Assembly (NCBI GenBank): GCA_963555815.3
Contig: CAUVWX020000001.1
Coordinates: 320,001 to 384,000 of the forward strand
From: a bacterium
GTDB taxonomy: Bacteria > UBA8248 > JACPRG01 > G963555815
Direction: 5' to 3'
Length of the DNA stretch: 64,000 bases
A model generated the notes under the pieces. That model worked only from the letters and a program-made list of their open reading frames with translations. It ran no database searches and was not told the origin of the DNA. Positions 6,681 through 28,717 of the stretch are shown in pieces. A program made the translations under genes and the position numbers. Each line of letters opens with the position of its first letter. Positions within the stretch are counted from its first letter, which is position 1.

Positions 6681-8702
6681 CTACTGGCCGAGGGAATAGA
6701 CCACAGCCCGGCTGACACCCTCGCTCAGGCTGAGGAGATCTTTCGTGATGACGGCCAGAATGAGCTCTTCCGCTCCATCCCCATCAAGGTCGCCAAAGGC
6801 GTAGTCCGCGATAATCCCGCCCACCTTTCGCGAGCGCCACTGCTCTGAGAGCCCCTGCCCATCCCAGGCCATGGCGACGAGCTCGGCGTCCTTGTAACCC
6901 GATGAAGAGACGAACTCCAGCCGGCGCAGGTTGACCGGCACCAAAAGGCTCGGCCTTCCGCTCCCGTTGAGGTCTCGAAGAAGGAGGCGGCCCCGGATGG
7001 GGAGGTAGACGGGACGGACATCTGAATCAAGGCCGGAGGGCTCCTCGGGCCGGCTCAGGGTTGGGTCATGGCGAAACTCGACCAGGGAGACTCCTATCCT
7101 GTCGCCTCCCCGCCAGATCTGCTCCCCATTTCGCCGCGCAATGGTCAGGTTCTCGTTCCTCGTCACCTCCACCACCTCTTCAATCCCGTCCTGGTCCACA
7201 TCCCAGAGGTTGAACCCATAGACCTCGCCCCCCTTTGGGAGCTGAAGGGACTCCTTGGCCACGAGCTTGTCGCCCTCCCATCCGTAGCGGTAGACGTCTC
7301 CGTGGAAAGCCCTGGCCACTCCCTCCCTCTGCCCGATGAGCATCGGAGGACGTCCCACGGGCTCGATGGCCCGGAAGAAGACCGATAGTCTGGAGGCGAT
7401 GACCTCATATTTGCCGTTCCGGTGTTCCAGTACAAAGGAGAGAACGTTGGGGTGTCGCCGGTTGGTGACATAGATTTCCGGGACCCCGCTTCCGTCGAGA
7501 TCTATCGAGTCAACGGCGAGGAAACGGTCAGCGAGGCCCCCTTTGTAAAGAAACTCCTCGATCAGGCGGCCTCCCTCCCAGCGGTAGATGCTGAGGCGAT
7601 TATCGTATATAAAGGCGACCTCTACGCGGCCATCTCCGTCAAAATCCCCGGTCGTCATACCTGACGCAACCCATTTGAAAGTCTGGCTTCGGTTGACCCC
7701 CCTACTCTCTGGAACGTCCTTTCTCAGGACAAAGTTGGGGTTCACTTCCGAGTGATCGGGGGCTACTGCCCCCTCCCCTTGGCGGGGGATTGGGAATGTT
7801 CGGGCGGCGGGAGCACTGGCCACCTGGGGGAGGTCCCGGACAACGGCCAGCTGAGTCTCACCAAGGCGTCCGTCCTCGGCGTCGACGAGCTGGCTCTCGA
7901 TGACCTGGCGGTCCTGGACGAGGCGGACGGTGTTCTTCAGGAGAAAATCAGCCCGGACGAACTGCTGCAGGCGCGGGAGGTTCTCCGGACTCGTTGTCTC
8001 GGCCACCGAGACCCTCATCTCCAGGAGCCAAACCTGGAGCTTGTCGGCGTCAAAGACTTCAAAACGCCCGACCCCGGCTACGGCCGACGCAAGGCCAAAC
8101 GTGAGGGTGTCCAGGTTCAGACGCTGACCCGTCTGATTCTCAAAGGGGAGAACGGCAAGGCGGACTTTCGCCGATGTGATCCGCACTCGGTCTCCCTCCT
8201 GAATCTCAAACTCGGAGGGCGTCTTGAGGCGGGCCACCGAGAACTGTTCCCGGACTTCCTGGATCACCAGGACCCCGAGCTCCTCCTCAAAGCTGCCCAG
8301 AACCTGGCCTGTAACGGGATGCTTGAAGCTGCCGAGCTCTCGGTAGACCAAAAGCTCCGTCCCCGAACGAAGGTGACTCGCCTCGCCCAGGGTCAGGTAG
8401 ATGTCCTCTCCGCGAATGGAGGCGACAAAGCCGTCTACAGCTGGAAACTGCCCCTCCAGCTTCTCGGCCATTCTCCTGAAGGCGGAAGGATAATCGACAG
8501 GGCCTCCGGGCTCCTCCACTGCCTCCTGCGTCGAAGGAGACTCCAGTTGGGCATGGGCAAACCCGGCACCCATGAGGAGTCCCAGAAGACTCAACGCGCA
8601 GACAGACCCCTTTAAACCCCCGCTGAAGACCCTTCTAAACGGCAGGGTCACTAAAAACCCTCCCTTCCGAGAAATGGAGCCGGCGATGAGATTTAAACCC
8701 AC
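6681..8702 (-). CDS. Exported FG-GAP/VCBS-repeat protein with N-terminal FlgT/CsgG-like domains
   Basis: Signal peptide (FAHAQ); LAVLPFEN motif; repeated GDFDGDG/DLDGSG/DVDQDG/DLNGSG/GDLDGDG Ca-binding motifs. Start uncertain. Confidence 0.75.
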   Translation of the reverse strand: MGLNLIAGSISRKGGFLVTLPFRRVFSGGLKGSVCALSLLGLLMGAGFAHAQLESPSTQEAVEEPGGPVDYPSAFRRMAEKLEGQFPAVDGFVASIRGEDIYLTLGEASHLRSGTELLVYRELGSFKHPVTGQVLGSFEEELGVLVIQEVREQFSVARLKTPSEFEIQEGDRVRITSAKVRLAVLPFENQTGQRLNLDTLTFGLASAVAGVGRFEVFDADKLQVWLLEMRVSVAETTSPENLPRLQQFVRADFLLKNTVRLVQDRQVIESQLVDAEDGRLGETQLAVVRDLPQVASAPAARTFPIPRQGEGAVAPDHSEVNPNFVLRKDVPESRGVNRSQTFKWVASGMTTGDFDGDGRVEVAFIYDNRLSIYRWEGGRLIEEFLYKGGLADRFLAVDSIDLDGSGVPEIYVTNRRHPNVLSFVLEHRNGKYEVIASRLSVFFRAIEPVGRPPMLIGQREGVARAFHGDVYRYGWEGDKLVAKESLQLPKGGEVYGFNLWDVDQDGIEEVVEVTRNENLTIARRNGEQIWRGGDRIGVSLVEFRHDPTLSRPEEPSGLDSDVRPVYLPIRGRLLLRDLNGSGRPSLLVPVNLRRLEFVSSSGYKDAELVAMAWDGQGLSEQWRSRKVGGIIADYAFGDLDGDGAEELILAVITKDLLSLSEGVSRAVVYSLGQ

Positions 8703-8840
8703 AACTTAATGGTTATAAATGCCACTCACCCCCCATTGAGGTTAGCCCAGACGGCCCAAAAGCGCAAGACCAAAAAAATAGCGGGCCTGAGACGACGCCC
8801 GGCTGTCGGCCGAGGCGGACGGAGGGCACCCTGGACGACC

Positions 8841-9770
8841 TCATTCACTTCTCTTAACAACGAGTCGCACGTACCTTTTCCCACGCGCGAAGGATTGTGG
8901 GTTGACGATATCGAGCTGATCCGTCAGATAGACCTCCAAATCTTCTACCGCTTCTCGGGCCAAGTAATGAAAAGCCGGTCTTTTCACGCGCAGTTTTTCC
9001 AGCATAAACGTCAAAAGAGGCGGTCCGAGCTTTTTGCCCCACATATACGCGCAAGCCAGTGTTGGCAGTACGTTCTCCGTAATGTCCCGTTGGCAAGTGA
9101 TCTCCCATCCCCTTTCCCGTAGCTTCTGCCTAAAAACTTCCCACTGATGACCCGATTTTCCATGGCCGTCCTCGACACGAAAATAGTCACTGATTATCCA
9201 ACGCCCATCGGGTTTCAAGATCGCTTCAACGTTAGACAGGGCCGCGTCCAGTTTCAGATACTGTAAAGACTCTGCCATAATGACGGTGCCGAAATAATGT
9301 TGAAAATCATCCACGGGCATGGTTTCAAATTTTCCTTCGATAAGCGGAACGTTTGGATAAGTCTTCATGATGTACTGAATTTGCGACGCATCGGGCGTCA
9401 GCGCGACAGGCATCAATTTCCGCTGAAGGAGAAGGCTTATCAATCCCCCCAGGCCCGAGCCCACGTCAAGGATCGGAGAGTCTTTGTCCACAATGTCGTC
9501 CAACAATAGCTCCGCATAGCGAAGCTGGGCCTTTTGAATATCACGTAGACTGATTTCTTCCGGGGCAATGGCGGGGTCGTCAAAGTGGCCGTAATGGAGA
9601 AAATGTGACGACAGGACTTGCGAGTAGAGTTTCAGTTGGGCGTCGTCACGGGCCCTGCTGGAACGCTTGGTTTTTCCTAAGAGGCGCAGGAAGCGAAACA
9701 GATGGACAGGGTGGAAGAGCTTTTTCGCAATTTGCTTTCCAACTGACTTCACAGAGATTTTCTTTGACAC
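8841..9770 (-). CDS. Class I SAM-dependent methyltransferase (sterol/tocopherol/CFA-methyltransferase-like)
   Basis: FLHYGHFDDP and ILDVGSGLGG motif I. GTG start at 9770 chosen to avoid overlap with the WD40 gene. Confidence 0.75.
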   Translation of the reverse strand: MSKKISVKSVGKQIAKKLFHPVHLFRFLRLLGKTKRSSRARDDAQLKLYSQVLSSHFLHYGHFDDPAIAPEEISLRDIQKAQLRYAELLLDDIVDKDSPILDVGSGLGGLISLLLQRKLMPVALTPDASQIQYIMKTYPNVPLIEGKFETMPVDDFQHYFGTVIMAESLQYLKLDAALSNVEAILKPDGRWIISDYFRVEDGHGKSGHQWEVFRQKLRERGWEITCQRDITENVLPTLACAYMWGKKLGPPLLTFMLEKLRVKRPAFHYLAREAVEDLEVYLTDQLDIVNPQSFARGKRYVRLVVKRSE

Positions 9771-9777
9771 TTTTTGC

Positions 9778-10749
9778 TCAGGATGGTCTGACGGGGACTT
9801 TCCAGAGGCGGACAATCTTGTCACTCGATCCATAGGCCAGAAGACGGCCATCAGGGGAAAAGGAGATGGCAAAGACGAAGACCGAATCTCCATGCCCCTC
9901 AAATTGTATCAGCTCTCTGCCCGTAGAAACCCCCCAGAGGCGGATGGTCCCGTCAGCTGCCCCTGATGCCAGAAGGCTGCCGTCGGGCGAGAAGGAGACG
10001 GCGTTGACCACATTTTCATGCCCCTCAAGGCGCATCAGCTCCTTCCCCGAGGACACGTCCCAGAGGCGGATGGTCTTGTCAACTGACCCTGATGCCAGAA
10101 GGCGGCCATCAGGGGAAAAGGCGACGGACAGGACATAGCCCTCATGCCCCTCAAGACGTCTTAGAGCAATTCCCGAGGATACCTCCCACAGGCGGATGGT
10201 TTTGTCCCACGCCCCCGAAGCCAGTAGGCGCCCATCGGGCGAGAAGGAGACGGAGTTGACCACATCTCCATGCCCCTCCAGGCGTGTCAGCTCCCTCCCT
10301 GAGGACACGTCCCAGAGACCGACGGTCTCGTCAAATGAGCCAGAGGCGAGGAGGCGGCCATCAGGCGAGAAGGTGACGGACTTCACCCAATCGTCATGCC
10401 CCGCAAGGCGCCCCAGTTCTCTCCCTGATGACACATCCCAGAAACGGATAGCATTGTCATCTGACCCAGAGGCCAGAAGACGGCCATCAGGGGAGAAGGC
10501 GACAGAGAAGACCGAGCCTCCATACTCCTCAATGTGTTTTAGTTCTTTCCCTGAGAACACGTCCCAAAGGCGGATGGTCCTGTCGAATGACCCTGAGGCG
10601 AGGAGGCGACCGTCGGGCGAGAAGGAAACGGAGCCGACCGAATCTTGATGCCCCTCAAGGATCCGAACTTCTTGGGAGAAAGCAAGAGACGCAAGAAGGA
10701 TAGAAAGAGGAACAATCAAGGCCTGAAAACGAAAACGGCGCACGGGCAT
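9778..10749 (-). CDS. Secreted 7-repeat WD40 beta-propeller protein
   Basis: Signal peptide, then 7 highly similar ~42-aa repeats LEGH...V.SV.FSPDGRLLASGS.D.TIRLWDVSSG. Confidence 0.92.
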   Translation of the reverse strand: MPVRRFRFQALIVPLSILLASLAFSQEVRILEGHQDSVGSVSFSPDGRLLASGSFDRTIRLWDVFSGKELKHIEEYGGSVFSVAFSPDGRLLASGSDDNAIRFWDVSSGRELGRLAGHDDWVKSVTFSPDGRLLASGSFDETVGLWDVSSGRELTRLEGHGDVVNSVSFSPDGRLLASGAWDKTIRLWEVSSGIALRRLEGHEGYVLSVAFSPDGRLLASGSVDKTIRLWDVSSGKELMRLEGHENVVNAVSFSPDGSLLASGAADGTIRLWGVSTGRELIQFEGHGDSVFVFAISFSPDGRLLAYGSSDKIVRLWKVPVRPS

Positions 10750-10822
10750 CTTTTGCTTTGCTCCTTTGGCCTAATTATATTGGCCTAATCGTATCCAAAA
10801 GATGTCTCTCAGGCTTTTTTTC
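10600..10822 (-). repeat. Diverged direct repeat copy 1 (WD40 5' end plus upstream region)
   Basis: Aligns by eye with 22052-22284, including the upstream tctctcaggctttttttc and ttggcct-attat motifs. Confidence 0.8.
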
Positions 10823-15424: not shown

Positions 15425-17790
15425 ATGACCGTTAACTCCAAGGGCCGCGAGCTCTTCATCGTCGACAACAGTGTCTCTGGCTGGACCGGGCTCCGGTACT
15501 TGGAGGAGTGGTCCAGCATCGCGAAGGCATTCGACATCGCGACCGGATTCTTCGATATCGGCGCGCTGCTCGCCCTCGACGGCAAGTGGCAGGATCTCGA
15601 CAAGATCCGGATCCTGATGGGGGCGGAGACTACGCATCGGACTAGGAAGACCATTCTCGAAGCGGTCCGGGCGCAAGCGCTCGATAGGCTCGACGAAAGC
15701 ATCGAGGAGGACAAGGAGCCCAACCCCTTCCTACACGGGGTTCCCGCGATCCTCGACGCGCTCCGCTCTGGGCAGATCGAATGCCGTGTCTACGACAAGG
15801 ACAAATTCCACGCCAAGGCCTACATCACCCACGCAAAGCTTGAGGTCGTGGGCGCCCAGGCGCTGGTAGGCTCCAGCAACTTCACGCGGCCGGGTCTCAC
15901 AAAGAACATTGAGTTGAACGTCCAGATCCAGAGCGCGCGCGAGGTCGCGCAGCTCCAGGAGTGGTTCGAGACGCACTGGAACGAAGCGAACGAGGTCACC
16001 GAGGCCGTCATCGAGACGATCTCGCACCATACGCACCTCTACTCGCCGTTCGACGTCTACGCCAAGGCGCTGCAGCAGTTCTTCCGGGAGCACGAGTTGA
16101 CCGCGACCGAGTGGGACGAGACACGGTCGCGAATGTTCCCGCACCTCGATCGCTATCAGAAGGAGGCGTATTGGGCGCCCATGCAATCCTTCCGCCGGAT
16201 CCGTGTGCTCGACCTTCACGGGAACCTCAAGAAGAAGGAGGCTGCCCCCGGGGGTGGCCGCGATGTCAACGTGTTCGACATCCAGCAGGGCGTGGCCATC
16301 GGGCTCTTCACGAAGGCTGCCGCAGCCAGCAGATGTGTCTGCCACGCCGATCTCTGGGGCAAACAGGAGCAGAAGTACTGCTGGCTGTGGGAGCACGGCT
16401 CCGCCGACACCGAATGGGTACAGCTGGAGCCAGCCCCATCGTTCTATCTGTTCGAGCCCTTCGACGACGCAGCAACAGGCGCCTACTACGGCTGGCCTGC
16501 GATCAATGAGGTGATGGACGTCAACGTGACCGGAATCGTCACGGCGCGAGACGGCTTTGTCATCGACCTCAAACCGAGTGCCCTGCTGGATCGCATTGAA
16601 ACGTTTCTTGATAACCGACTGAGCGACAACGAGGTCAAGAAGCGTCTCGGTCTGAAAGAGAACTACGCCTGGCGAGTCGCTGCGGCTCGGCGCGAACTCC
16701 GCGCGGCCACAAAGCGGAAGCGGTTAGAGGACTTCGTTACCAAGATTCTCTATCGGCCCTTCGACGAACGGTTCATCTTCTGGCATCCGTCCGTAGTGTG
16801 GAAGCCTCGGACCGAAGCCATGCCGCACCTGCTCGCGGGGTGGAATCAGGCCCTGTGCATTGGTAGAGCGGGCCAAGTGATTGGTTCAAGCGTGTGGGAT
16901 GTCTTGTTCGCTTCTACATCCCCATCAGATTTAAATTTGTTTCGGCGTGGAGGGAACTGCCTTTTCCCTCTCTACCTCTATCCCGGAGTCGGCAAGGCCG
17001 ACGGGTCGCTGTTCAGCCGCTGGGCCAAGGGGTAGGATGGTCGCATGCCGAACCTGGACTCAGGGTTTGTCGAGCAGATAGCAGCCGCCACCGAACTGCG
17101 ATTCGTCAGCGACGGCCGCGGCGATCTCCACGAGGCCTTCGGCCCAGAGGACGTCCTCGCCTGGATCTACGCGGTGTTCCACAGCCCCGGTTACCGCGAG
17201 CAGTACGAGGCTCATCTCAAGCTCGACTTCCCCCGCGTGCCGCTGCCCGGCGGCGTCGACCTCTTCCGAAAGCTGGCTTCGGCCGGCCATGACCTGCTGG
17301 CCCTCCACCTGCTCGAATCCCAGAAGCTCGGTAAGCCCATCACCACCTACACCGGCCCCAGGAACCCCGAAGTCGGCCGCGTCGGCTGGTCGGACGGCAC
17401 CGTCTGGCTCGACGCCGGCAAGACCAACGCCCGCGAGGGCCACCGCGCAACGAAGCCCGGCACCATCGGGTTCCAGGGCGTGCCAGAGGAGGCCTGGGAC
17501 TTCCAAATCGGCGGCTACCAAGTCTGCCACAAGTGGCTCAAGAATAGGAAAGGCCGCACGCTCTCGGATGAGGACGTCGCCCACTACCAGAAGATCATCG
17601 TCGCCCTGAACGAGACCATCCGCATCATGGCCGAGATCGACGAGGTCATCGAGGAACACGGCGGCTGGCCCGACGCGTTCCAGACCGGCGCGGAGTCGGA
17701 TACGCGCATCAGAGGGACGGCGATGATGATCCCCTTCCGGCCACGCACGGTCTCGCCCGTGCCCGAGGACCGCTATATCACCTGCGTACC
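15425..17790 (+). pseudogene. Deletion fusion: PLD-domain helicase N-terminus plus C-terminal part of a Type ISP/IIG-like restriction-modification enzyme; in-frame TAG at 17033-17035
   Basis: FHAKAY...VGSSNFT PLD motif, then an abrupt switch at ~16180 to LDLHGN...NVFDIQQGVAI, YRPFD, YAVFHSP.YR, DFPRVP, QIGGYQVCHKWLK. ORF 17045 is in frame with 15425. Confidence 0.75.
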
Positions 17791-18318
17791 GACCCGGGCG
17801 GGGTTCGTGTACCTGGCCATCGTGCTGCGACGTGTTCAGCCGCCGGGTGGTGGGCTGGTCCATGGCCCATTATCTTCGGTACCGATCTGGTGCTCAAGGC
17901 GCTGAACATGGCGCTGGGACAGCGCCGTCCCTATGGGGTCGTGCATCATTCGGACAGGGGATCGCAGTACACTTTGCTTGCCTTCGGCAAACGATGCCGG
18001 GAGATGAACGTGCTTCCTTCGACCGGATCGGCCGGCGACTGCTTTGACAATGCGATGGCCGAGAGCTTGTTCGCCACGCTGGAGTGCGATCTCATCGACC
18101 GGCGCTCGTTCCGTACCCAGACAGAAGCGCGCATGGCGATCTTCCAATTCATCAAGGGCTGGTACAACCCACGCCGCCGTCATTCGACCCTGGGTTACCT
18201 CAGCCCCAACGACTTCGAACGCGCCGCGGCTGAGTCAGTTCGAAAACCGGACGACGCACCAAAATCTCCGTCAAATCACTCCGTTCTTGGAGGTCTCCCA
18301 GTTGGAAGTTCCGACTAG
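17777..18318 (+). mobile_element. IS3-family transposase OrfB remnant (frameshifted)
   Basis: IT.VPTRAGFVYLAIVL/DVFSRRVVGWSM, HHSDRGSQY, CFDNAMAESLFATLECDL, WYNPRRRHSTLGYLSP across shifting frames. Confidence 0.85.
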
Positions 18319-19058: not shown

Positions 19059-19493
19059 CACGATCCTCCTTACTTTTTGTTGACCGAGTGTTCACCAAAT
19101 TTCACAGCGAGTGGCCCGGACTTGAAACAGCCCTCATTGCCTAGGTGAGCCGTCAATTCTTCTACGATGTCGACTATCCGGCCAGAAATATATCCAAAAC
19201 AAGAGGAATAATGTCAATAAAAATATTCCAAACTTTATTCCCCTACCGGCCTATTTCCTTTTTCCATAGGGCCTTTGCGGCCTTTCCAGCAATTTTTTTC
19301 CGCTTCTTCCCACTCAATTTCTTGGCTCTAGCCTTACCCCTTTTTTTTCCTCCCAAGCGGCCAAAAGCTACAGCATGAGGATTCTTATCCCTCATCCTCT
19401 GGCCGCACCTCCTCTGGCTCGCCTTCTGTGGCCGTTTGGACTATGTTGGAGACTAGCAGGTTGCGGTCGGCGTGGGCGGTTTTTGGTAGTGTC

Positions 19494-20378
19494 TCAGTTT
19501 GAATTTATTTTTTTGTAGGGCCCACGTTTTTTCGGTGCCGGTTTCCTGGCATCAATCAGATTCAGCACGTCTTCCAATTCCCACACCCGATCAGTCAATC
19601 CCGCTTGCATGGCCGGAGTCACCCGCAAGGTCTTGTGAATCTTCACGAAATTGTAGAAGACAAAATACAAGGCCAGCGCGTGACAATGGTTGTCGATCTT
19701 CTTGGAAAAGGCGTTCGTCAAACGGGTGAACCGTCGCAGGCTCATCCTCATGGTGAGGTTATGCCGTTCCACATGAGACGTAGAGATATGCTGCTTGTCG
19801 GGATTGCCCTGAACCACTTGTTTTCGTGCGCCATTACAGACGAACGGGCTATACTTCCGTTCCTGTCCTGGTTCAGAAGACTCGCCGTAGAGTTTCACCA
19901 GTTGCGCATAATCAATGTTGTTGCCGAAGGCATCTTCCACGGCTTCAAGGTAGGCCCTGTGTCCGTCCGTCGTGAGTTGGACGCGGGTCGCCAGCCGTGA
20001 TTCCAAATCTCTCATAAACTCCGTGGCATAGCCAGCATCCCGATCACCCACCATCCATGACAGCATCAACCTGGAATTACTCTCAAGGGCCGTCCACGTC
20101 CACACGTCACCGGCTTGCTCAGGAGCTGCCTGGGCTGCCCTCACGTTCTTTTGCTTGGCATAGCAGAAACTCCAGATCTCATCACATTGCACTTTGGAAG
20201 CATGAACATTCCGAACCTTTTCATCGTGGAAGGCTTCGCAAGCGTGACCGGCTTCCACCAAGAGTTTCGTCACCGTGTTGATGCTCACGCCTACGATGCG
20301 AGAAATCGTCCGCATACTGGAGCCTTCGACCAACATGTTGAGAATCTGAATGCGCTTGGTGTTTGGTAACGTGTTCAT
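19494..20378 (-). CDS. IS1-family-like DDE transposase
   Basis: N-terminal HTH ([21 protein letters not shown]), [41 protein letters not shown]; stop codon lies inside the left TIR. Confidence 0.9.
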
Positions 20379-20385
20379 GCTGATT

Positions 20386-20414
20386 ACTATATGATATTAA
20401 TGCTTTAGTGTCAA
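20386..20414 (-). promoter_or_regulatory. Sigma70 promoter of the transposase, probably leaderless transcript
   Basis: TTGACA-17bp-TATAGT, ending 7 nt upstream of the ATG at 20378; no SD present. Confidence 0.7.
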
Positions 20415-20524
20415 GCAATTATTTCATATATAGAATGTTATTGACTTCGGCTATGCTGAAAGTAGAGCATAGGTTACTCATTTACGTAGGTGTAACAGTG
20501 CTAATTTGATGAAAGTAAAATTTT

Positions 20525-20872
20525 ATGGCGAAAGAGATTCCAGAAAAATTTGACTTCCACTTCGTTAAGTCAAACAGCTTCCGGGTAGTGCATTGCGATG
20601 GTGTGTGGGGAGGGACAACTCCTCGCGGCTATATAACGATGAGCGTCTATTCGGAACGGTCTCCACTTCCCCAGAAAACTACGCACCAAGTGCTGGATCA
20701 TGGACGGATCGGCCAAGAAACAGGCAAAGAGGGCAAGGAAGGGATAATTCGTGAGGTTGACGTTAAAGTTATCATGGATTTAAGCATGGCGCAAGGTCTG
20801 GTCACATGGTTGGAAGGGCATATAAAATTTCTTAAAGAACGACTAAAAGCTCAGCAAGGGAGCGGCCAATAG
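20525..20872 (+). CDS. Cargo gene 1: hypothetical, DUF3467-like protein
   Basis: Intact 115-aa ORF; FRVVHCDGVWGG...YSER...REVDVKVIMD..MAQGLVTWL pattern. Confidence 0.55.
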   Translation: MAKEIPEKFDFHFVKSNSFRVVHCDGVWGGTTPRGYITMSVYSERSPLPQKTTHQVLDHGRIGQETGKEGKEGIIREVDVKVIMDLSMAQGLVTWLEGHIKFLKERLKAQQGSGQ

Positions 20873-21342
20873 TGTTTACACTAACCAATGTTTCTTCTTC
20901 ACCAAGTGAAGGCTTGATGCCAATCAAGAGAGGCGATGATTCAGGGCCGAGACCATTCTCGTCGGTTTGCAACCGTCACACATCGGTTCAGGCACCGGAA
21001 GGCGCTAGCTTTTTCATTCTGTATCTCGTTAATTCTCCCCTGACAGCACGTTACTATATTGATGATGTTACGGTTCATATTACTGAATTGCCAGATGCGA
21101 CGCATTCTCTTCTAAAACCGATCCCTATACGGTTGAAACCTGTGGGAGAAGTGGAGTGGATGGCCAGCTTTGACGAAGCCAACATCGCCATGACTGGTAA
21201 CACACCGGAGGAGGCCAAGGAGTTTCTATCTTACAATATCATCGATGCCGTGGAATTATTTCATGCTAAAGAAGAAGCCTTGATACCCGATCTTAAGCAG
21301 ACTTTAGTGGTACTTCGTCAGTATATAGAGATCTCTGAGTGA
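20872..21342 (+). CDS. Cargo gene 2: HicB-like antitoxin with N-terminal extension
   Basis: C-terminal WMASFDEANIAMTGNTPEEAKEFL resembles the HicB partial RNase H fold; overlaps both neighbours. Confidence 0.55.
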   Translation: MFTLTNVSSSPSEGLMPIKRGDDSGPRPFSSVCNRHTSVQAPEGASFFILYLVNSPLTARYYIDDVTVHITELPDATHSLLKPIPIRLKPVGEVEWMASFDEANIAMTGNTPEEAKEFLSYNIIDAVELFHAKEEALIPDLKQTLVVLRQYIEISE

Positions 21343-21644
21343 AGTCCCTTACACAGGATGACGCCCATGCGATTGCCCATAAACTAGAAGCAACGATCGA
21401 AAGGAGAAGCAAGCATGATTGGGCTATTGTCGAGTATATGGGCCGAGTTGTTGCACAGTATGGAATCAGGCGAGCTAGCCGAGAAAAGAATCACGATCAT
21501 ATTCCCGGACAACTAAATATCTCGAGATTAGAAGCAAGAGGGCTTGCCGACTGTCCATTTAGCAAAGATGATTATTTTACGGCTCTACGCAGTAGAGGGA
21601 AGATTCCCATGGAAGGGGAAAACGGAACAAATAAAGAAAGTTGA
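21339..21644 (+). CDS. Cargo gene 3: HicA-like toxin
   Basis: ~100 aa; RSKHDWAIV (conserved His), QLNIS, DCPFSKDDY; GTGA overlap with the upstream gene. Confidence 0.5.
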   Translation: MKSLTQDDAHAIAHKLEATIERRSKHDWAIVEYMGRVVAQYGIRRASREKNHDHIPGQLNISRLEARGLADCPFSKDDYFTALRSRGKIPMEGENGTNKES

Positions 21645-21653
21645 AGTGTGGTA

Positions 21654-21884
21654 TTAGGAATATGCTCGCCACCGAGCCTGTGCAGCCCGCCTAGCAATCT
21701 CTCGCCGTTGTTCTGCTGTCAACCGTTGCGCTCGCACCGCCCCGCCTTTTAGCCCGCCCTTCTGGGCATACTCCTTCCCGGCCATCGTTTCGTCGTCAAC
21801 CTCACCCGTCGCAATCTTAGCCACCTTGATCGCGGCTCCAATCACGTCACCAGGCCGTTTCTGTCCTGACGGTCCTTTAGGCAT
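21654..21884 (-). CDS. Small basic KGG-motif protein at the element end
   Basis: MPKGPSGQKRPGDVIGAAIKVAKIATGE...KGGLKGGAVRAQRLTAEQRREIARRAAQARW; extended -10 (TGtTAAGCT) 6 nt before the ATG. Confidence 0.8.
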   Translation of the reverse strand: MPKGPSGQKRPGDVIGAAIKVAKIATGEVDDETMAGKEYAQKGGLKGGAVRAQRLTAEQRREIARRAAQARWRAYS

Positions 21885-22030
21885 ACGGGAAGCTTAACAC
21901 AACGCGAGGAGAAAAGAGAGAGCCTGCAAATTCAAACTGAGACACTACCCAATTTTTACTTAACCACTTTAGCATACCCTAAATACAGCATACCAAAGAC
22001 GGGATTGCAGGGGCAACCCCTTAGCCAGAA

Positions 22031-22052
22031 AAAATCAAACTGACCCACTACA
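22031..22052. mobile_element. Orphan terminal repeat of an older related IS1-like element
   Basis: AAAATCAAACTGACCCACTACA vs younger TIR AAATTCAAACTGAGACACTACC (18/22 identical); abuts the WD40 truncation point. Confidence 0.75.
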
Positions 22053-22230
22053 GAATGGTGTTGTCACTTGACGCCGAGGCGAGGAGGCGGCCGTCGGGCG
22101 AGAAGGCGAGGGACATGACCTCGTTGCCATGCCCCTCAAGAATCCGAACTTCTTGGGAGAGGGCAAGAGACGCAAAAAGGGTGGAAAGAGAAACAATCAG
22201 GGCCTGAAGGCGAAAATGGCGCACGGACAT
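22048..22230 (-). pseudogene. Truncated WD40 paralog (signal peptide plus first repeat)
   Basis: MSVRHFRLQALIVSLS...EVRILEGH...SPDGRLLASASSDNTI is close to the N-terminus of 9778-10749; its TAG is supplied by the orphan TIR. Confidence 0.85.
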
Positions 22231-22321
22231 CTTTTGCTCCGTTGGCCTGATTATATCCGAAAGGCGCCTCTCAGGCTTTTTTTCCTTGGTTTGGGGGGGT
22301 ACGAGTAATTGAAAAGAAGGG

Positions 22322-22393
<72 letters not shown>

Positions 22394-22509
22394 CTTCACA
22401 TAAAATCCTTATGATGTTCCAAATCAAGCCTTTCGGGGCCCCTTCGCACTTCGATGTTCATTAACATGACCGGGCTTCCAGGTCAACCGGGAAAGGGGAT
22501 CCCTATCCA

Positions 22510-28256: not shown

Positions 28257-28622
28257 TCAAAGCGATTTCAGGAAGTGGACGAGCTGCCAGATCTCCTCCT
28301 CGGAAAGCTGACGCCCAAAAGGGGCCATCGGTGTCCCCGGCACTCCATTGGCGATCGTCTCGAAGATGGCCTCGTCGGAGGCGCCGTATTTGAGCTCTTC
28401 ACGAGTAAAATCGCGCGGCTTGGGATTGAGGATTCCTGCGGCTGGCCCCTGCCCGTCTCCCTTTTCCCCGTGACAAAAGAAACATTTTTGAAGATAGACC
28501 GCCTGGCCCTTCGCCACCGAATCGGGGGTTGAAACCCTGGTGGGAGCCGAGGGGGTCTCCGCCAAAGAACGACCCAGGAGGAAAAAACCCAACAGGATGA
28601 ACGCGATGCCCGTCTTCTTCAT
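28257..28622 (-). CDS. Small periplasmic monoheme cytochrome c
   Basis: MKKTG signal peptide, CFFCH, KPRDFT, GVPGTPM (Met ligand). Confidence 0.88.
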   Translation of the reverse strand: MKKTGIAFILLGFFLLGRSLAETPSAPTRVSTPDSVAKGQAVYLQKCFFCHGEKGDGQGPAAGILNPKPRDFTREELKYGASDEAIFETIANGVPGTPMAPFGRQLSEEEIWQLVHFLKSL

Positions 28623-28717
28623 AGAAAATCCCCACGGTTGTGCCCCCGCACAGGGGCGCAACCCCTTCGGAGGGGCGCTAAGCCGGGAAGGGGGATTTTC
28701 TATGAAGAAGACGGGCA
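28607..28717. repeat. 27-bp perfect inverted repeat with structured 57-bp spacer
   Basis: TGCCCGTCTTCTTCATAGAAAATCCCC (28607-28633) and its exact reverse complement at 28691-28717. Confidence 0.92.

What the first reader, a model, noticed from the sequence alone, without database searches (positions are those of the whole stretch)
19485..21949. IS1-like cargo transposon with fixed architecture: TIR, small KGG protein, inverted cargo, transposase, TIR
Seen: perfect 22-bp TIRs; the transposase ends inside one TIR; a 76-aa basic KGG-motif gene starts just inside the other; three cargo genes lie between them on the opposite strand. Both element genes have a -10 box 6-7 nt from the ATG with no SD. 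Known: classical IS1 is ~0.8 kb with InsA/InsB and no passengers. Inference: this is a distinct transporter-IS family with a dedicated cargo slot, and the small protein is a core component (a second copy sits in the same position in an older element here).
Basis: partly seen in the sequence, partly recalled or inferred. Interest (0 to 1): 0.85.

Follow-up and report, generated by a model that had tools for sequence, protein, structure and literature searches.

The report
IS1 cargo transposon with companion gene
A 2.5-kb jumping gene of the IS1 family, from a widespread lineage that nearly always pairs its transposase with one small basic protein, likely a repressor of the transposase promoter, and carries swappable passenger genes between them, in relatives often toxin-antitoxin or defence types.

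Summary
The element is real. It is 2,465 bp long, with perfect 22-bp TIRs and a single-ORF IS1-family transposase without a zinc finger. Contigs from two other studies lack exactly element + 8 bp, so it inserted with an 8-bp duplication, into the 5' end of an older element's small gene.
The small KGG gene is core to one large transposase clade: 173 of 176 complete elements keep all or part of it. A sister clade with the same TIR type and cargo lacks it (18 of 18, two in this genome). The layout is looser than claimed: about a third of slot ORFs are not inverted, and 105 of 194 elements have a second slot.
A third of both clades insert 15 bp upstream of a -35 box, so KGG is not the targeting factor. 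KGG presence goes with a leaderless, palindrome-bearing transposase promoter, so a repressor role is my best guess (about 0.45), untested.
It fits the ISMhu11-like transporter IS group as I recall it; ISfinder could not be checked. This scan reported the family and the promoter targeting before on other DNA. Verdict: new variant of a known kind.

The parts
21928..21949 (-). Left TIR (upstream of the small gene), 22 bp, perfect
19485..19506 (+). Right TIR, 22 bp; holds the transposase stop codon
19477..19484 (.). Target-site duplication, one copy (6 of 8 positions match the other copy)
   Evidence: empty sites shorter by 2,465 + 8 nt
21950..21957 (.). Target-site duplication, other copy
21654..21884 (-). 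Small basic companion gene (KGG, 76 aa). Three predicted helices: an element-specific N-terminal helix (14-26) and a basic C-terminal pair (38-54, 57-73). Named 'RNA-binding protein' or 'histone H1' by annotators
   Evidence: no Pfam hit and only an E 0.1 NCBIfam hit
21891..21896 (-). -10-like hexamer with an upstream TG (extended type), 6 nt before the small gene's ATG; predicted leaderless
   Evidence: sequence; start of transcription not measured
19494..20378 (-). Single-ORF IS1-family DDE transposase, 294 aa: N-terminal HTH, no zinc finger, D66-D138-E204, basic C-terminal tail
20386..20417 (-). Predicted transposase promoter (-35 at 20409-20414, 17-bp spacer, -10 at 20386-20391) with a TGCT-N9-AGCA palindrome over the -35 box; candidate operator
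   Evidence: binding untested
20451..20472 (+). Second palindrome with the same half-site (7-bp arms, 8-nt gap) upstream of the cargo operon; candidate operator
   Evidence: sequence; untested
20525..20872 (+). Cargo 1, 115 aa, no family; one 32% homologue on a Methylorubrum megaplasmid outside any such element
20872..21342 (+). Cargo 2, 156 aa, no family; possible HicB-like antitoxin by position and by eye only
   Evidence: negative; model unusable (pLDDT 33.6)
21339..21644 (+). Cargo 3, 101 aa, likely HicA-like toxin
   Evidence: Atlas feature score 0.94 to a cluster auto-named HicA; no Pfam hit
22035..22052 (-). Left TIR of an older, truncated element, at the point where a WD40 gene breaks off
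   Evidence: the gene is intact in same-genus genome G005
19243..19476 (-). Frameshifted remnant of the older element's companion gene (second subtype); its 5' end is the insertion site of the new element

Best explanation
This is an IS1-family transporter insertion sequence whose single-ORF transposase likely moves everything between the two 22-bp inverted repeats and which left an 8-bp target duplication here, while the small basic companion protein likely acts as a DNA-binding repressor at the palindrome over the transposase's predicted leaderless promoter. Shown: the ends, the insertion as one unit, the tight link of the companion gene to one transposase clade, fast cargo turnover, and a preference of relatives for sites 15 bp upstream of -35 boxes. 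Inferred: with no leader, no Shine-Dalgarno sequence and no frameshift, transposase output must be limited at transcription. The companion would do this, dimerising through its N-terminal helix and gripping DNA with its basic C-terminal helices, so filling the role that InsA has in classical IS1. The sister clade without the gene appears to limit translation instead (Shine-Dalgarno sequence in a hairpin, seen by eye). The cargo is regulatory, toxin-antitoxin or defence DNA that likely helps the element persist; here probably a HicA/HicB-like pair plus one unknown gene.
For: Unit insertion: contigs in runs X8 and X10 (two studies) join the flanks and lack 2,473 nt = 2,465 + 8. TSD 8/8 in 144 and 7/8 in 7 of 194 complete non-redundant elements. 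Linkage. In the companion clade 167 of 176 have the full gene at the left end, 3 the N-terminal half, 3 more a relocated or split copy beside the transposase promoter, and 3 none. 87 of 92 elements of the focal subtype fall in one transposase clade (97 leaves, support 0.986), while only 5 of 64 element pairs with transposases 80% or more alike share slot cargo. Promoter: the palindrome (at most 1 mismatch) lies upstream of the transposase in 105 of 167 elements with the full gene, 3 of 18 in the sister clade, and 271 of 2,413 background windows; leaderless spacing in 117 of 167 against 2 of 18. The palindrome does not depend on which way the adjacent cargo points (37 of 56 against 67 of 104). 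The three true losses have a changed inner TIR and, by eye, no palindrome and a purine-rich leader. The C-terminal half matches the N-terminus of PHROG 2384. Cargo: 37 of 93 ORFs scanned have a Pfam hit, 12 of them toxin-antitoxin-type families.
Against: No binding or expression data exist. The clade contrast is essentially one evolutionary event plus one or two losses, so the correlation does not show cause. The palindrome is barely enriched at the companion's own promoter (28 of 167, 17%, against 11% background), which an autoregulated repressor would usually show. It is absent in 62 of 167 elements that have the gene. A TIR-like site also flanks the transposase promoter in 30 of 176 elements (background 53 of 3,277 windows), so the transposase HTH itself may be the repressor. 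The half-site overlaps the -35 hexamer, so part of its conservation is promoter conservation. The predicted fold has no match in the PDB or viral libraries (pTM 0.47). The focal site does not follow the -35 rule.
Confidence: 0.5

Rival explanations
1. The companion is a transposase cofactor. Its N-terminal helix binds the transposase and its basic helices bend or bridge the ends, making up for the missing zinc finger or helping to pair ends 2-5 kb apart.
For: Co-inherited with the transposase across a variable slot. The N-terminal helix alone is kept, with a replaced basic tail, in L183 and L281. True loss goes with a changed inner TIR.
Against: The sister clade also lacks the zinc finger, is as long (1.8-5.3 kb) and has 7-8 of 8 TSD matches in 15 of 18 elements without the gene. 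Paired-alignment covariation was at noise level (top z 7.5 against 6.1-6.8 in 4 shuffles, 154 pairs).
Confidence: 0.27
2. The companion serves the cargo or the host rather than transposition: a nucleoid- or RNA-binding factor that silences or licenses AT-rich, often toxic passenger genes.
For: The same half-site palindrome lies before the focal cargo operon (20451-20472). The cargo is AT-richer than the core genes (46% GC against 52% and 60%). The C-terminal module also occurs without the element (L366, L367, L379).
Against: The sister clade carries cargo in the same slot without it. The palindrome is tied to the transposase start, not to cargo direction. The gene follows the transposase tree, not the cargo.
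Confidence: 0.15
3. The companion is the factor that aims the element at promoters, for example by binding RNA polymerase.
For: 41 of 123 elements with the full gene insert exactly 7 nt (TSD end to hexamer) before a -35-like box; background mean 2.5 per offset.
Against: The same fraction does so without it: 5 of 15 in the sister clade (Fisher p = 1.0) and 3 of 9 with the gene truncated, relocated or lost.
Confidence: 0.04
4. The small gene is old cargo that hitch-hikes at the left end without a function for the element.
For: It can be lost (3 of 176) and the sister clade never has it.
Against: Kept in 173 of 176 elements while neighbouring cargo is replaced. Synonymous changes exceed non-synonymous ones in the first 31 codons in 11 of 12 comparisons. 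It is kept even when moved to the other strand (L171, L345).
Confidence: 0.04

Closest known systems
IS1 family, ISMhu11 group (single-ORF members, some with passenger genes; Siguier, Gagnevin and Chandler 2009). Recalled; the paper was seen only as a reference-list entry in PMC5704250 and PMC7986276
   Same: Single ORF, no N-terminal zinc finger, HTH kept, long second-D-to-E spacing (66 aa), C-terminal extension, passenger genes, size of 1-5 kb
   Different: As I recall it, the description names no conserved companion gene, no fixed slot, no toxin-antitoxin bias and no -35-anchored targeting. I could not compare with ISfinder entries, so some members may already be listed there.
IS1 of Escherichia coli (InsA / InsAB')
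   Same: Related DDE domain (PF03400 at 24.5 bits, cut-off 24.1), TIRs of about 22 bp starting GGT, 8-9-bp TSD, a small basic second product
   Different: No programmed frameshift and no zinc finger; three to four times longer; the small protein is a separate gene 1-2 kb upstream and shows no similarity to InsA in Pfam
Transporter IS (tIS) in general, such as IS1595-family tISCpe8 and MTnSag1 (passages read in PMC9330008, PMC5704250, PMC7986276)
   Same: Passenger genes inside the TIRs of a single DDE-transposase element
   Different: Different transposase family (NF033547 25.3 bits, cut-off 75). Cargo here is highly variable and rich in toxin-antitoxin and regulatory genes, not resistance genes
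Tn3-family transposons carrying toxin-antitoxin pairs (passage in PMC9330008; co-occurrence of TA systems with cointegrate-forming transposases in passages of PMC13617665)
   Same: A unit transposon with toxin-antitoxin passengers between two core genes
   Different: No resolvase gene, a 294-aa IS1-type transposase, 8-bp duplication

Membership tests
IS1 family | DDE transposase homologous to IS1 InsB | tested here: met
   PF03400 24.5 bits over cut-off 24.1. NF033558 is the best NCBIfam hit (E 2e-21) but at 76.8 bits is under its cut-off of 100. D66, D138 and E204 invariant in 15 of 15 aligned.
IS1 family | TIRs of about 20-25 bp starting GGT (recalled) | tested here: met
   22-bp perfect pair
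IS1 family | 8-9-bp target duplication (recalled) | tested here: met
   Empty sites shorter by element + 8 nt; 8/8 in 144 of 194 relatives
Classical IS1 group (InsA/InsB) | Two ORFs joined by a -1 frameshift | tested here: not met
   One open 294-aa frame holds HTH and DDE
Classical IS1 group (InsA/InsB) | N-terminal zinc finger | tested here: not met
   Only one cysteine in the first 60 residues; HTH hits start at residue 3-13
ISMhu11 group of IS1 (definition recalled) | Single ORF, HTH kept, zinc finger absent, long D-E spacing, C-terminal extension | tested here: met
   D138-E204 spacing 66 aa; 90 aa after E204. The definition comes from memory, not from a call.
ISMhu11 group of IS1 (definition recalled) | Transposase clusters with curated ISfinder members | not testable with these tools
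   No ISfinder access; papers not held; the name is not found in the library
Transporter IS (tIS) | Passenger genes inside the TIRs, moving with the element | tested here: met
   Definition read in passages of PMC9330008 and PMC7986276; cargo absent with the element from empty sites
IS1595 family | IS1595-type transposase | tested here: not met
   NF033547 25.3 bits, cut-off 75
Pfam KGG stress-protein repeat or histone H1 (small protein; family names recalled or from annotators) | Profile match | tested here: not met
   No Pfam family at E <= 1. The names are annotators' labels.
HicAB toxin-antitoxin (cargo 2 and 3) | HicA dsRBD-fold RNase beside a HicB antitoxin | tested here: inconclusive
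   Cargo 3: Atlas 0.94 to a cluster auto-named HicA and 0.87 to one with PF07927 in 17% of members; no PF07927 hit. Cargo 2: no support.
HicAB toxin-antitoxin (cargo 2 and 3) | Toxicity neutralised by the partner | not testable with these tools
   Needs an expression test

The most novel reading that the evidence does not exclude
A large, apparently uncatalogued IS1 lineage works as a two-gene shuttle for toxin-antitoxin and defence genes. A dedicated small protein of a new fold class controls or assists the transposase, the cargo slot is refilled far faster than the backbone diverges, and the transposase reads promoters (the -35 box or sigma-bound RNA polymerase) to land just upstream of host genes without breaking them. 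That would be a promoter-anchored targeting mechanism not known to me for any bacterial IS.
Probability: 0.35. Interest if true: 0.82.

Novelty: new variant of a known kind. Interest (0 to 1): 0.62.

Why it matters
IS1 is the textbook minimal IS. This lineage shows it as a common 1.3-5.6-kb cargo transposon across several bacterial phyla and viral contigs, with a conserved accessory gene that databases label 'RNA-binding protein' or 'histone H1'. The TIR-small gene-slot-transposase layout is a ready marker for mining new toxin-antitoxin and defence genes: 56 of 93 cargo ORFs scanned have no Pfam family. The fixed distance to -35 boxes makes an open question, how an IS picks harmless sites, directly testable. 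Cultured carriers exist (Acidiphilium multivorum JZ-6 plasmid, Mesorhizobium loti 582 plasmid).

Tried and rejected
Companion as targeting factor: rejected, same -35 preference without it. Companion-transposase 'fusions': 10 of 129 long homologues join the two in frame, but at scattered points with parts missing, so they read as internal deletions, not as evidence of a fused enzyme. Palindrome as a mere pair of divergent promoters: not supported, since it is independent of cargo direction and a good reverse promoter was found in only 22 of 167. Covariation between the two proteins: noise level. Fold searches of the companion model: no match in the PDB or viral libraries; no solved relative by sequence (best E 0.51). 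Cargo 2 model unusable. Cargo 3 has one homologue in the protein search and none in viral contigs or plasmids. No PADLOC hit for cargo or companion. No Rfam RNA inside the element. tblastn of the companion against plasmids and of a second-subtype companion against phages found nothing, though two plasmids do carry the gene, so those blanks reflect low sensitivity. RNA run X13 has short contigs on the transposase and cargo 2 at depth under 4; DNA carry-over is not excluded, so this is not counted as expression. Apparent joints between the two TIRs in contigs have only 19-27 letters on the short side and are probably other elements' ends, not circles. An IQ-TREE run did not finish; the tree used is FastTree, midpoint-rooted. 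Literature: nine searches ran on ISMhu11, tIS, cargo, histone H1, P63C and promoter targeting; no listing described this element. Subscription papers and ISfinder/TnPedia are not covered, and no supplements were read.
Full report
OBSERVATION. The element spans 19485-21949 (2,465 bp, 48.6% GC in a 60% GC genome). It has perfect 22-bp TIRs. On the minus strand lie a 76-aa basic gene (21654-21884) and a 294-aa transposase (19494-20378) whose stop codon is inside the right TIR. Three ORFs of 115, 156 and 101 aa lie between them on the plus strand. Both core genes have a -10-like hexamer 6 and 7 nt before the ATG and no Shine-Dalgarno sequence; the transposase also has a perfect TTGACA at 17 bp. 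The element is single-copy in the genome.

IT MOVED AS ONE UNIT. The flanking octamers match at 6 of 8 positions, so I looked for empty sites. Of 8 runs laid, a 942-nt contig in X8 joins 19485 to 21959, and a 954-nt contig in X10 joins 19444 to 21953 with 35 letters between. Both lack 2,473 nt net, the element plus 8. They come from two studies; each is one contig at depth 2-3. X1, X2 and X5 hold the filled site. The target is the 5' end of an older element's companion gene: in the X10 allele the target octamer contains an ATG on the gene's strand. That older gene is now in two frames and resembles the second subtype (50% over 44 aa to the protein in L365). Its TIR (22035-22052) sits where a WD40 gene breaks off; the gene is intact in same-genus genome G005. 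No other end or transposase of the older element was found in the window.

TRANSPOSASE. PF03400 scores 24.5 bits (cut-off 24.1), with weak HTH hits at the N-terminus. NF033558 is the best NCBIfam hit but under its cut-off. D66, D138 and E204 are invariant in 15 aligned relatives. There is one cysteine in the first 60 residues, so no zinc finger. This fits the ISMhu11 group of IS1 as I recall it; five look-ups for the defining papers failed.

THE SMALL GENE IS CORE TO ONE CLADE. It has 871 relatives among 875 candidates and 1,225 cluster representatives at E <= 1e-10. No Pfam family matches. Annotators call it 'RNA-binding protein' or 'histone H1'. The TIR lies upstream in 74 of 79 assessable loci. 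The transposase lies within 4 kb downstream in 66 of 72 (65 on the same strand; 8 loci too short), at 806-2,424 nt in the 61 with an intact start. From the transposase: I kept elements with both TIRs and an intact, non-identical transposase, 194 in all (151 transposase-anchored, 43 gene-anchored); truncated and duplicate loci were dropped. Among the 151, those 52% or more identical to the focal enzyme have the full gene in 120, the N-terminal half in 3 and none at the usual place in 6 of 129; below 52%, 4 of 22 have it. The profile used was built from these same genes, so it favours positives. A FastTree tree separates 18 elements without the gene (support 0.996) from 176 (support 0.863). Of the 6 blanks inside the large clade, L171 and L345 have the gene moved to the other strand beside the transposase promoter, L196 has it split between the two places, and L175, L177 and L191 have lost it. 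The sister clade includes two elements of this genome, C1:676820-679687 and C1:980285-982252, with related TIRs, 8-bp TSDs and cargo. The gene is therefore not needed for this type of transposase in general.

THE SLOT. In 61 gene-anchored elements, a longest-ORF call gave 121 ORFs in the main slot (81 opposite, 40 same strand) and 48 in a second slot behind the transposase; the 169 fall into 114 clusters. Of 137 ORFs of 94 aa or more I scanned 93, leaving out most cluster duplicates: 37 have a Pfam hit (Panacea 5, AAA/STAND 5, HTH_3 alone 4, PemK 3, HTH_3 + IrrE 3, Fic 2, P63C 2, ClpP-like 2, HigB, HicB, NYN, Bro-N, methylase-Mrr and aspartyl protease 1 each, DUFs 5). Only 5 of 64 pairs with transposases 80% or more alike share slot cargo, and the focal cargo is shared with none of 159 others. 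In X10 a roughly 90% identical element stands at depth 200-400 with 5 different flanks, and one contig leaves the focal sequence at 20417 for unlike DNA; X7 holds the focal cargo with 44 differences in 1,351 nt. Focal cargo 3 is likely HicA-like; cargo 1 and 2 stay unassigned.

TARGET CHOICE. Two earlier scan notes suggested homing to promoters, and I tested this on 147 rebuilt empty sites. A -35-like hexamer starts exactly 7 nt beyond the TSD (15 from its start) in 41 of 123 elements with the full gene (background 2.5 per offset, highest other offset 7), in 5 of 15 of the sister clade (background 0.6) and in 3 of 9 with the gene altered or lost. Base counts show a weak T-A-x-x-x-T signal 17 bp further on, but only 3 of 43 hits pass a strict -10 score (background 1%). 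Both orientations occur (25 and 18). Related elements are not independent draws, but each site is a separate insertion. The preference belongs to the transposase lineage, not to the small gene (Fisher p = 1.0). The focal site does not follow it.

WHAT THE SMALL PROTEIN LIKELY DOES. The model (pLDDT 87, pTM 0.47) has three helices and no structural match. D13, A18, G27, G47, R51, R71 and W72 are 94-100% conserved in 109 copies. The basic C-terminal half also occurs elsewhere (PHROG 2384 N-terminus; L366, L367, L379 without the TIR), whereas the N-terminal helix can stand alone with a different basic tail (L183, L281). Upstream of the transposase the top spaced dyad is GCTT-N6-AAGC (34 of 208 against 0.3 in shuffles), with N7 variants next, centred on the -35 box. 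With at most one mismatch it is present in 105 of 167 elements with the gene, 3 of 18 in the sister clade and 11% of background windows; leaderless spacing holds in 117 of 167 against 2 of 18. By eye the sister clade has a Shine-Dalgarno sequence in a hairpin instead. I infer a repressor that limits a leaderless, frameshift-free transposase at transcription. Against this: the contrast is nearly a single evolutionary event; the palindrome is weak at the gene's own promoter (28 of 167); and TIR-like sites beside the same promoter (30 of 176 against 1.6% background, 0 of 18 in the sister clade) point to the transposase HTH as another candidate. I put the repressor model at about 0.45-0.5, a transposase cofactor at 0.27, a cargo or host factor at 0.15. 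No complex prediction was available, and covariation gave no signal.

KNOWN VERSUS NEW. It works like a transporter IS and is a member of the IS1 family, not of the classical InsA/InsB group. I read keyword passages only of PMC9330008, PMC7986276, PMC5704250 and PMC13617665; they define tIS and link TA systems to some transposases, but those passages do not describe this element. Ten library searches found no description; the library lacks the key ISfinder papers, so this is weak. This scan has reported the family on other DNA. What this locus adds: empty-site alleles, a nested insertion into a relative's companion gene, counts in both directions with a gene-less sister clade as control, exclusion of the small protein as targeting factor, and a candidate operator. 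Cultured carriers with both TIRs and 8-bp TSDs: NZ_CP041717.1 and CP050295.1.

VERDICT. Observation confirmed; interpretation partly supported; new variant of a known kind; interest 0.62.

Noticed in passing
G000:C1:676820-679687 and C1:980285-982252: Two more cargo-carrying IS1-type elements of the sister clade in this genome, without the small gene. The first carries what look by eye like Doc/Fic and Panacea-type genes (not scanned against Pfam).
   Followed up: partly
window 9778-10822 and 22055-22284: The 5' part of a WD40 gene and its upstream DNA occur twice (82-84% alike), bracketing about 11 kb of mobile DNA next to tRNA-Thr (22319-22394). In G005 the tRNA-side WD40 gene is intact and is followed by the methyltransferase-like gene found here at 8841-9902.
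   Followed up: partly
window 8673-8720: A 48-nt, 75% copy of the tRNA-Thr end (family D14), possibly an old attachment-site remnant.
   Followed up: no
G000:C1:814353-815292: An IS1595-like transposase ORF ends on a lone TIR of the sister-clade type.
   Followed up: no
L138, L214: Near-exact copies of the inner TIR flank the transposase -35 box as an inverted pair; weaker copies occur in 30 of 176 elements.
   Followed up: partly
L128, L274, L251: Short derivatives (994, 1,323 and 1,365 bp) with both TIRs and 8-bp TSDs but little or no cargo; L128 keeps only the end of the transposase.
   Followed up: no
L119: The transposase is inverted relative to the small gene inside intact TIRs with a perfect TSD.
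   Followed up: no
L365-L382: 13 of 18 small-gene hits in same-class genomes without a full transposase still have a TIR-like match (at most 2 mismatches) within about 4 kb, suggesting many decayed or miniature copies; no chance level computed.
   Followed up: partly
window 17900-18230: An IS3-like end with many 85-91% copies in G002 and G004, inside broken restriction-modification-like ORFs at 15425-17905.
   Followed up: no
window 28607-28717: A perfect 27-bp inverted repeat with 57 nt between the arms.
   Followed up: no
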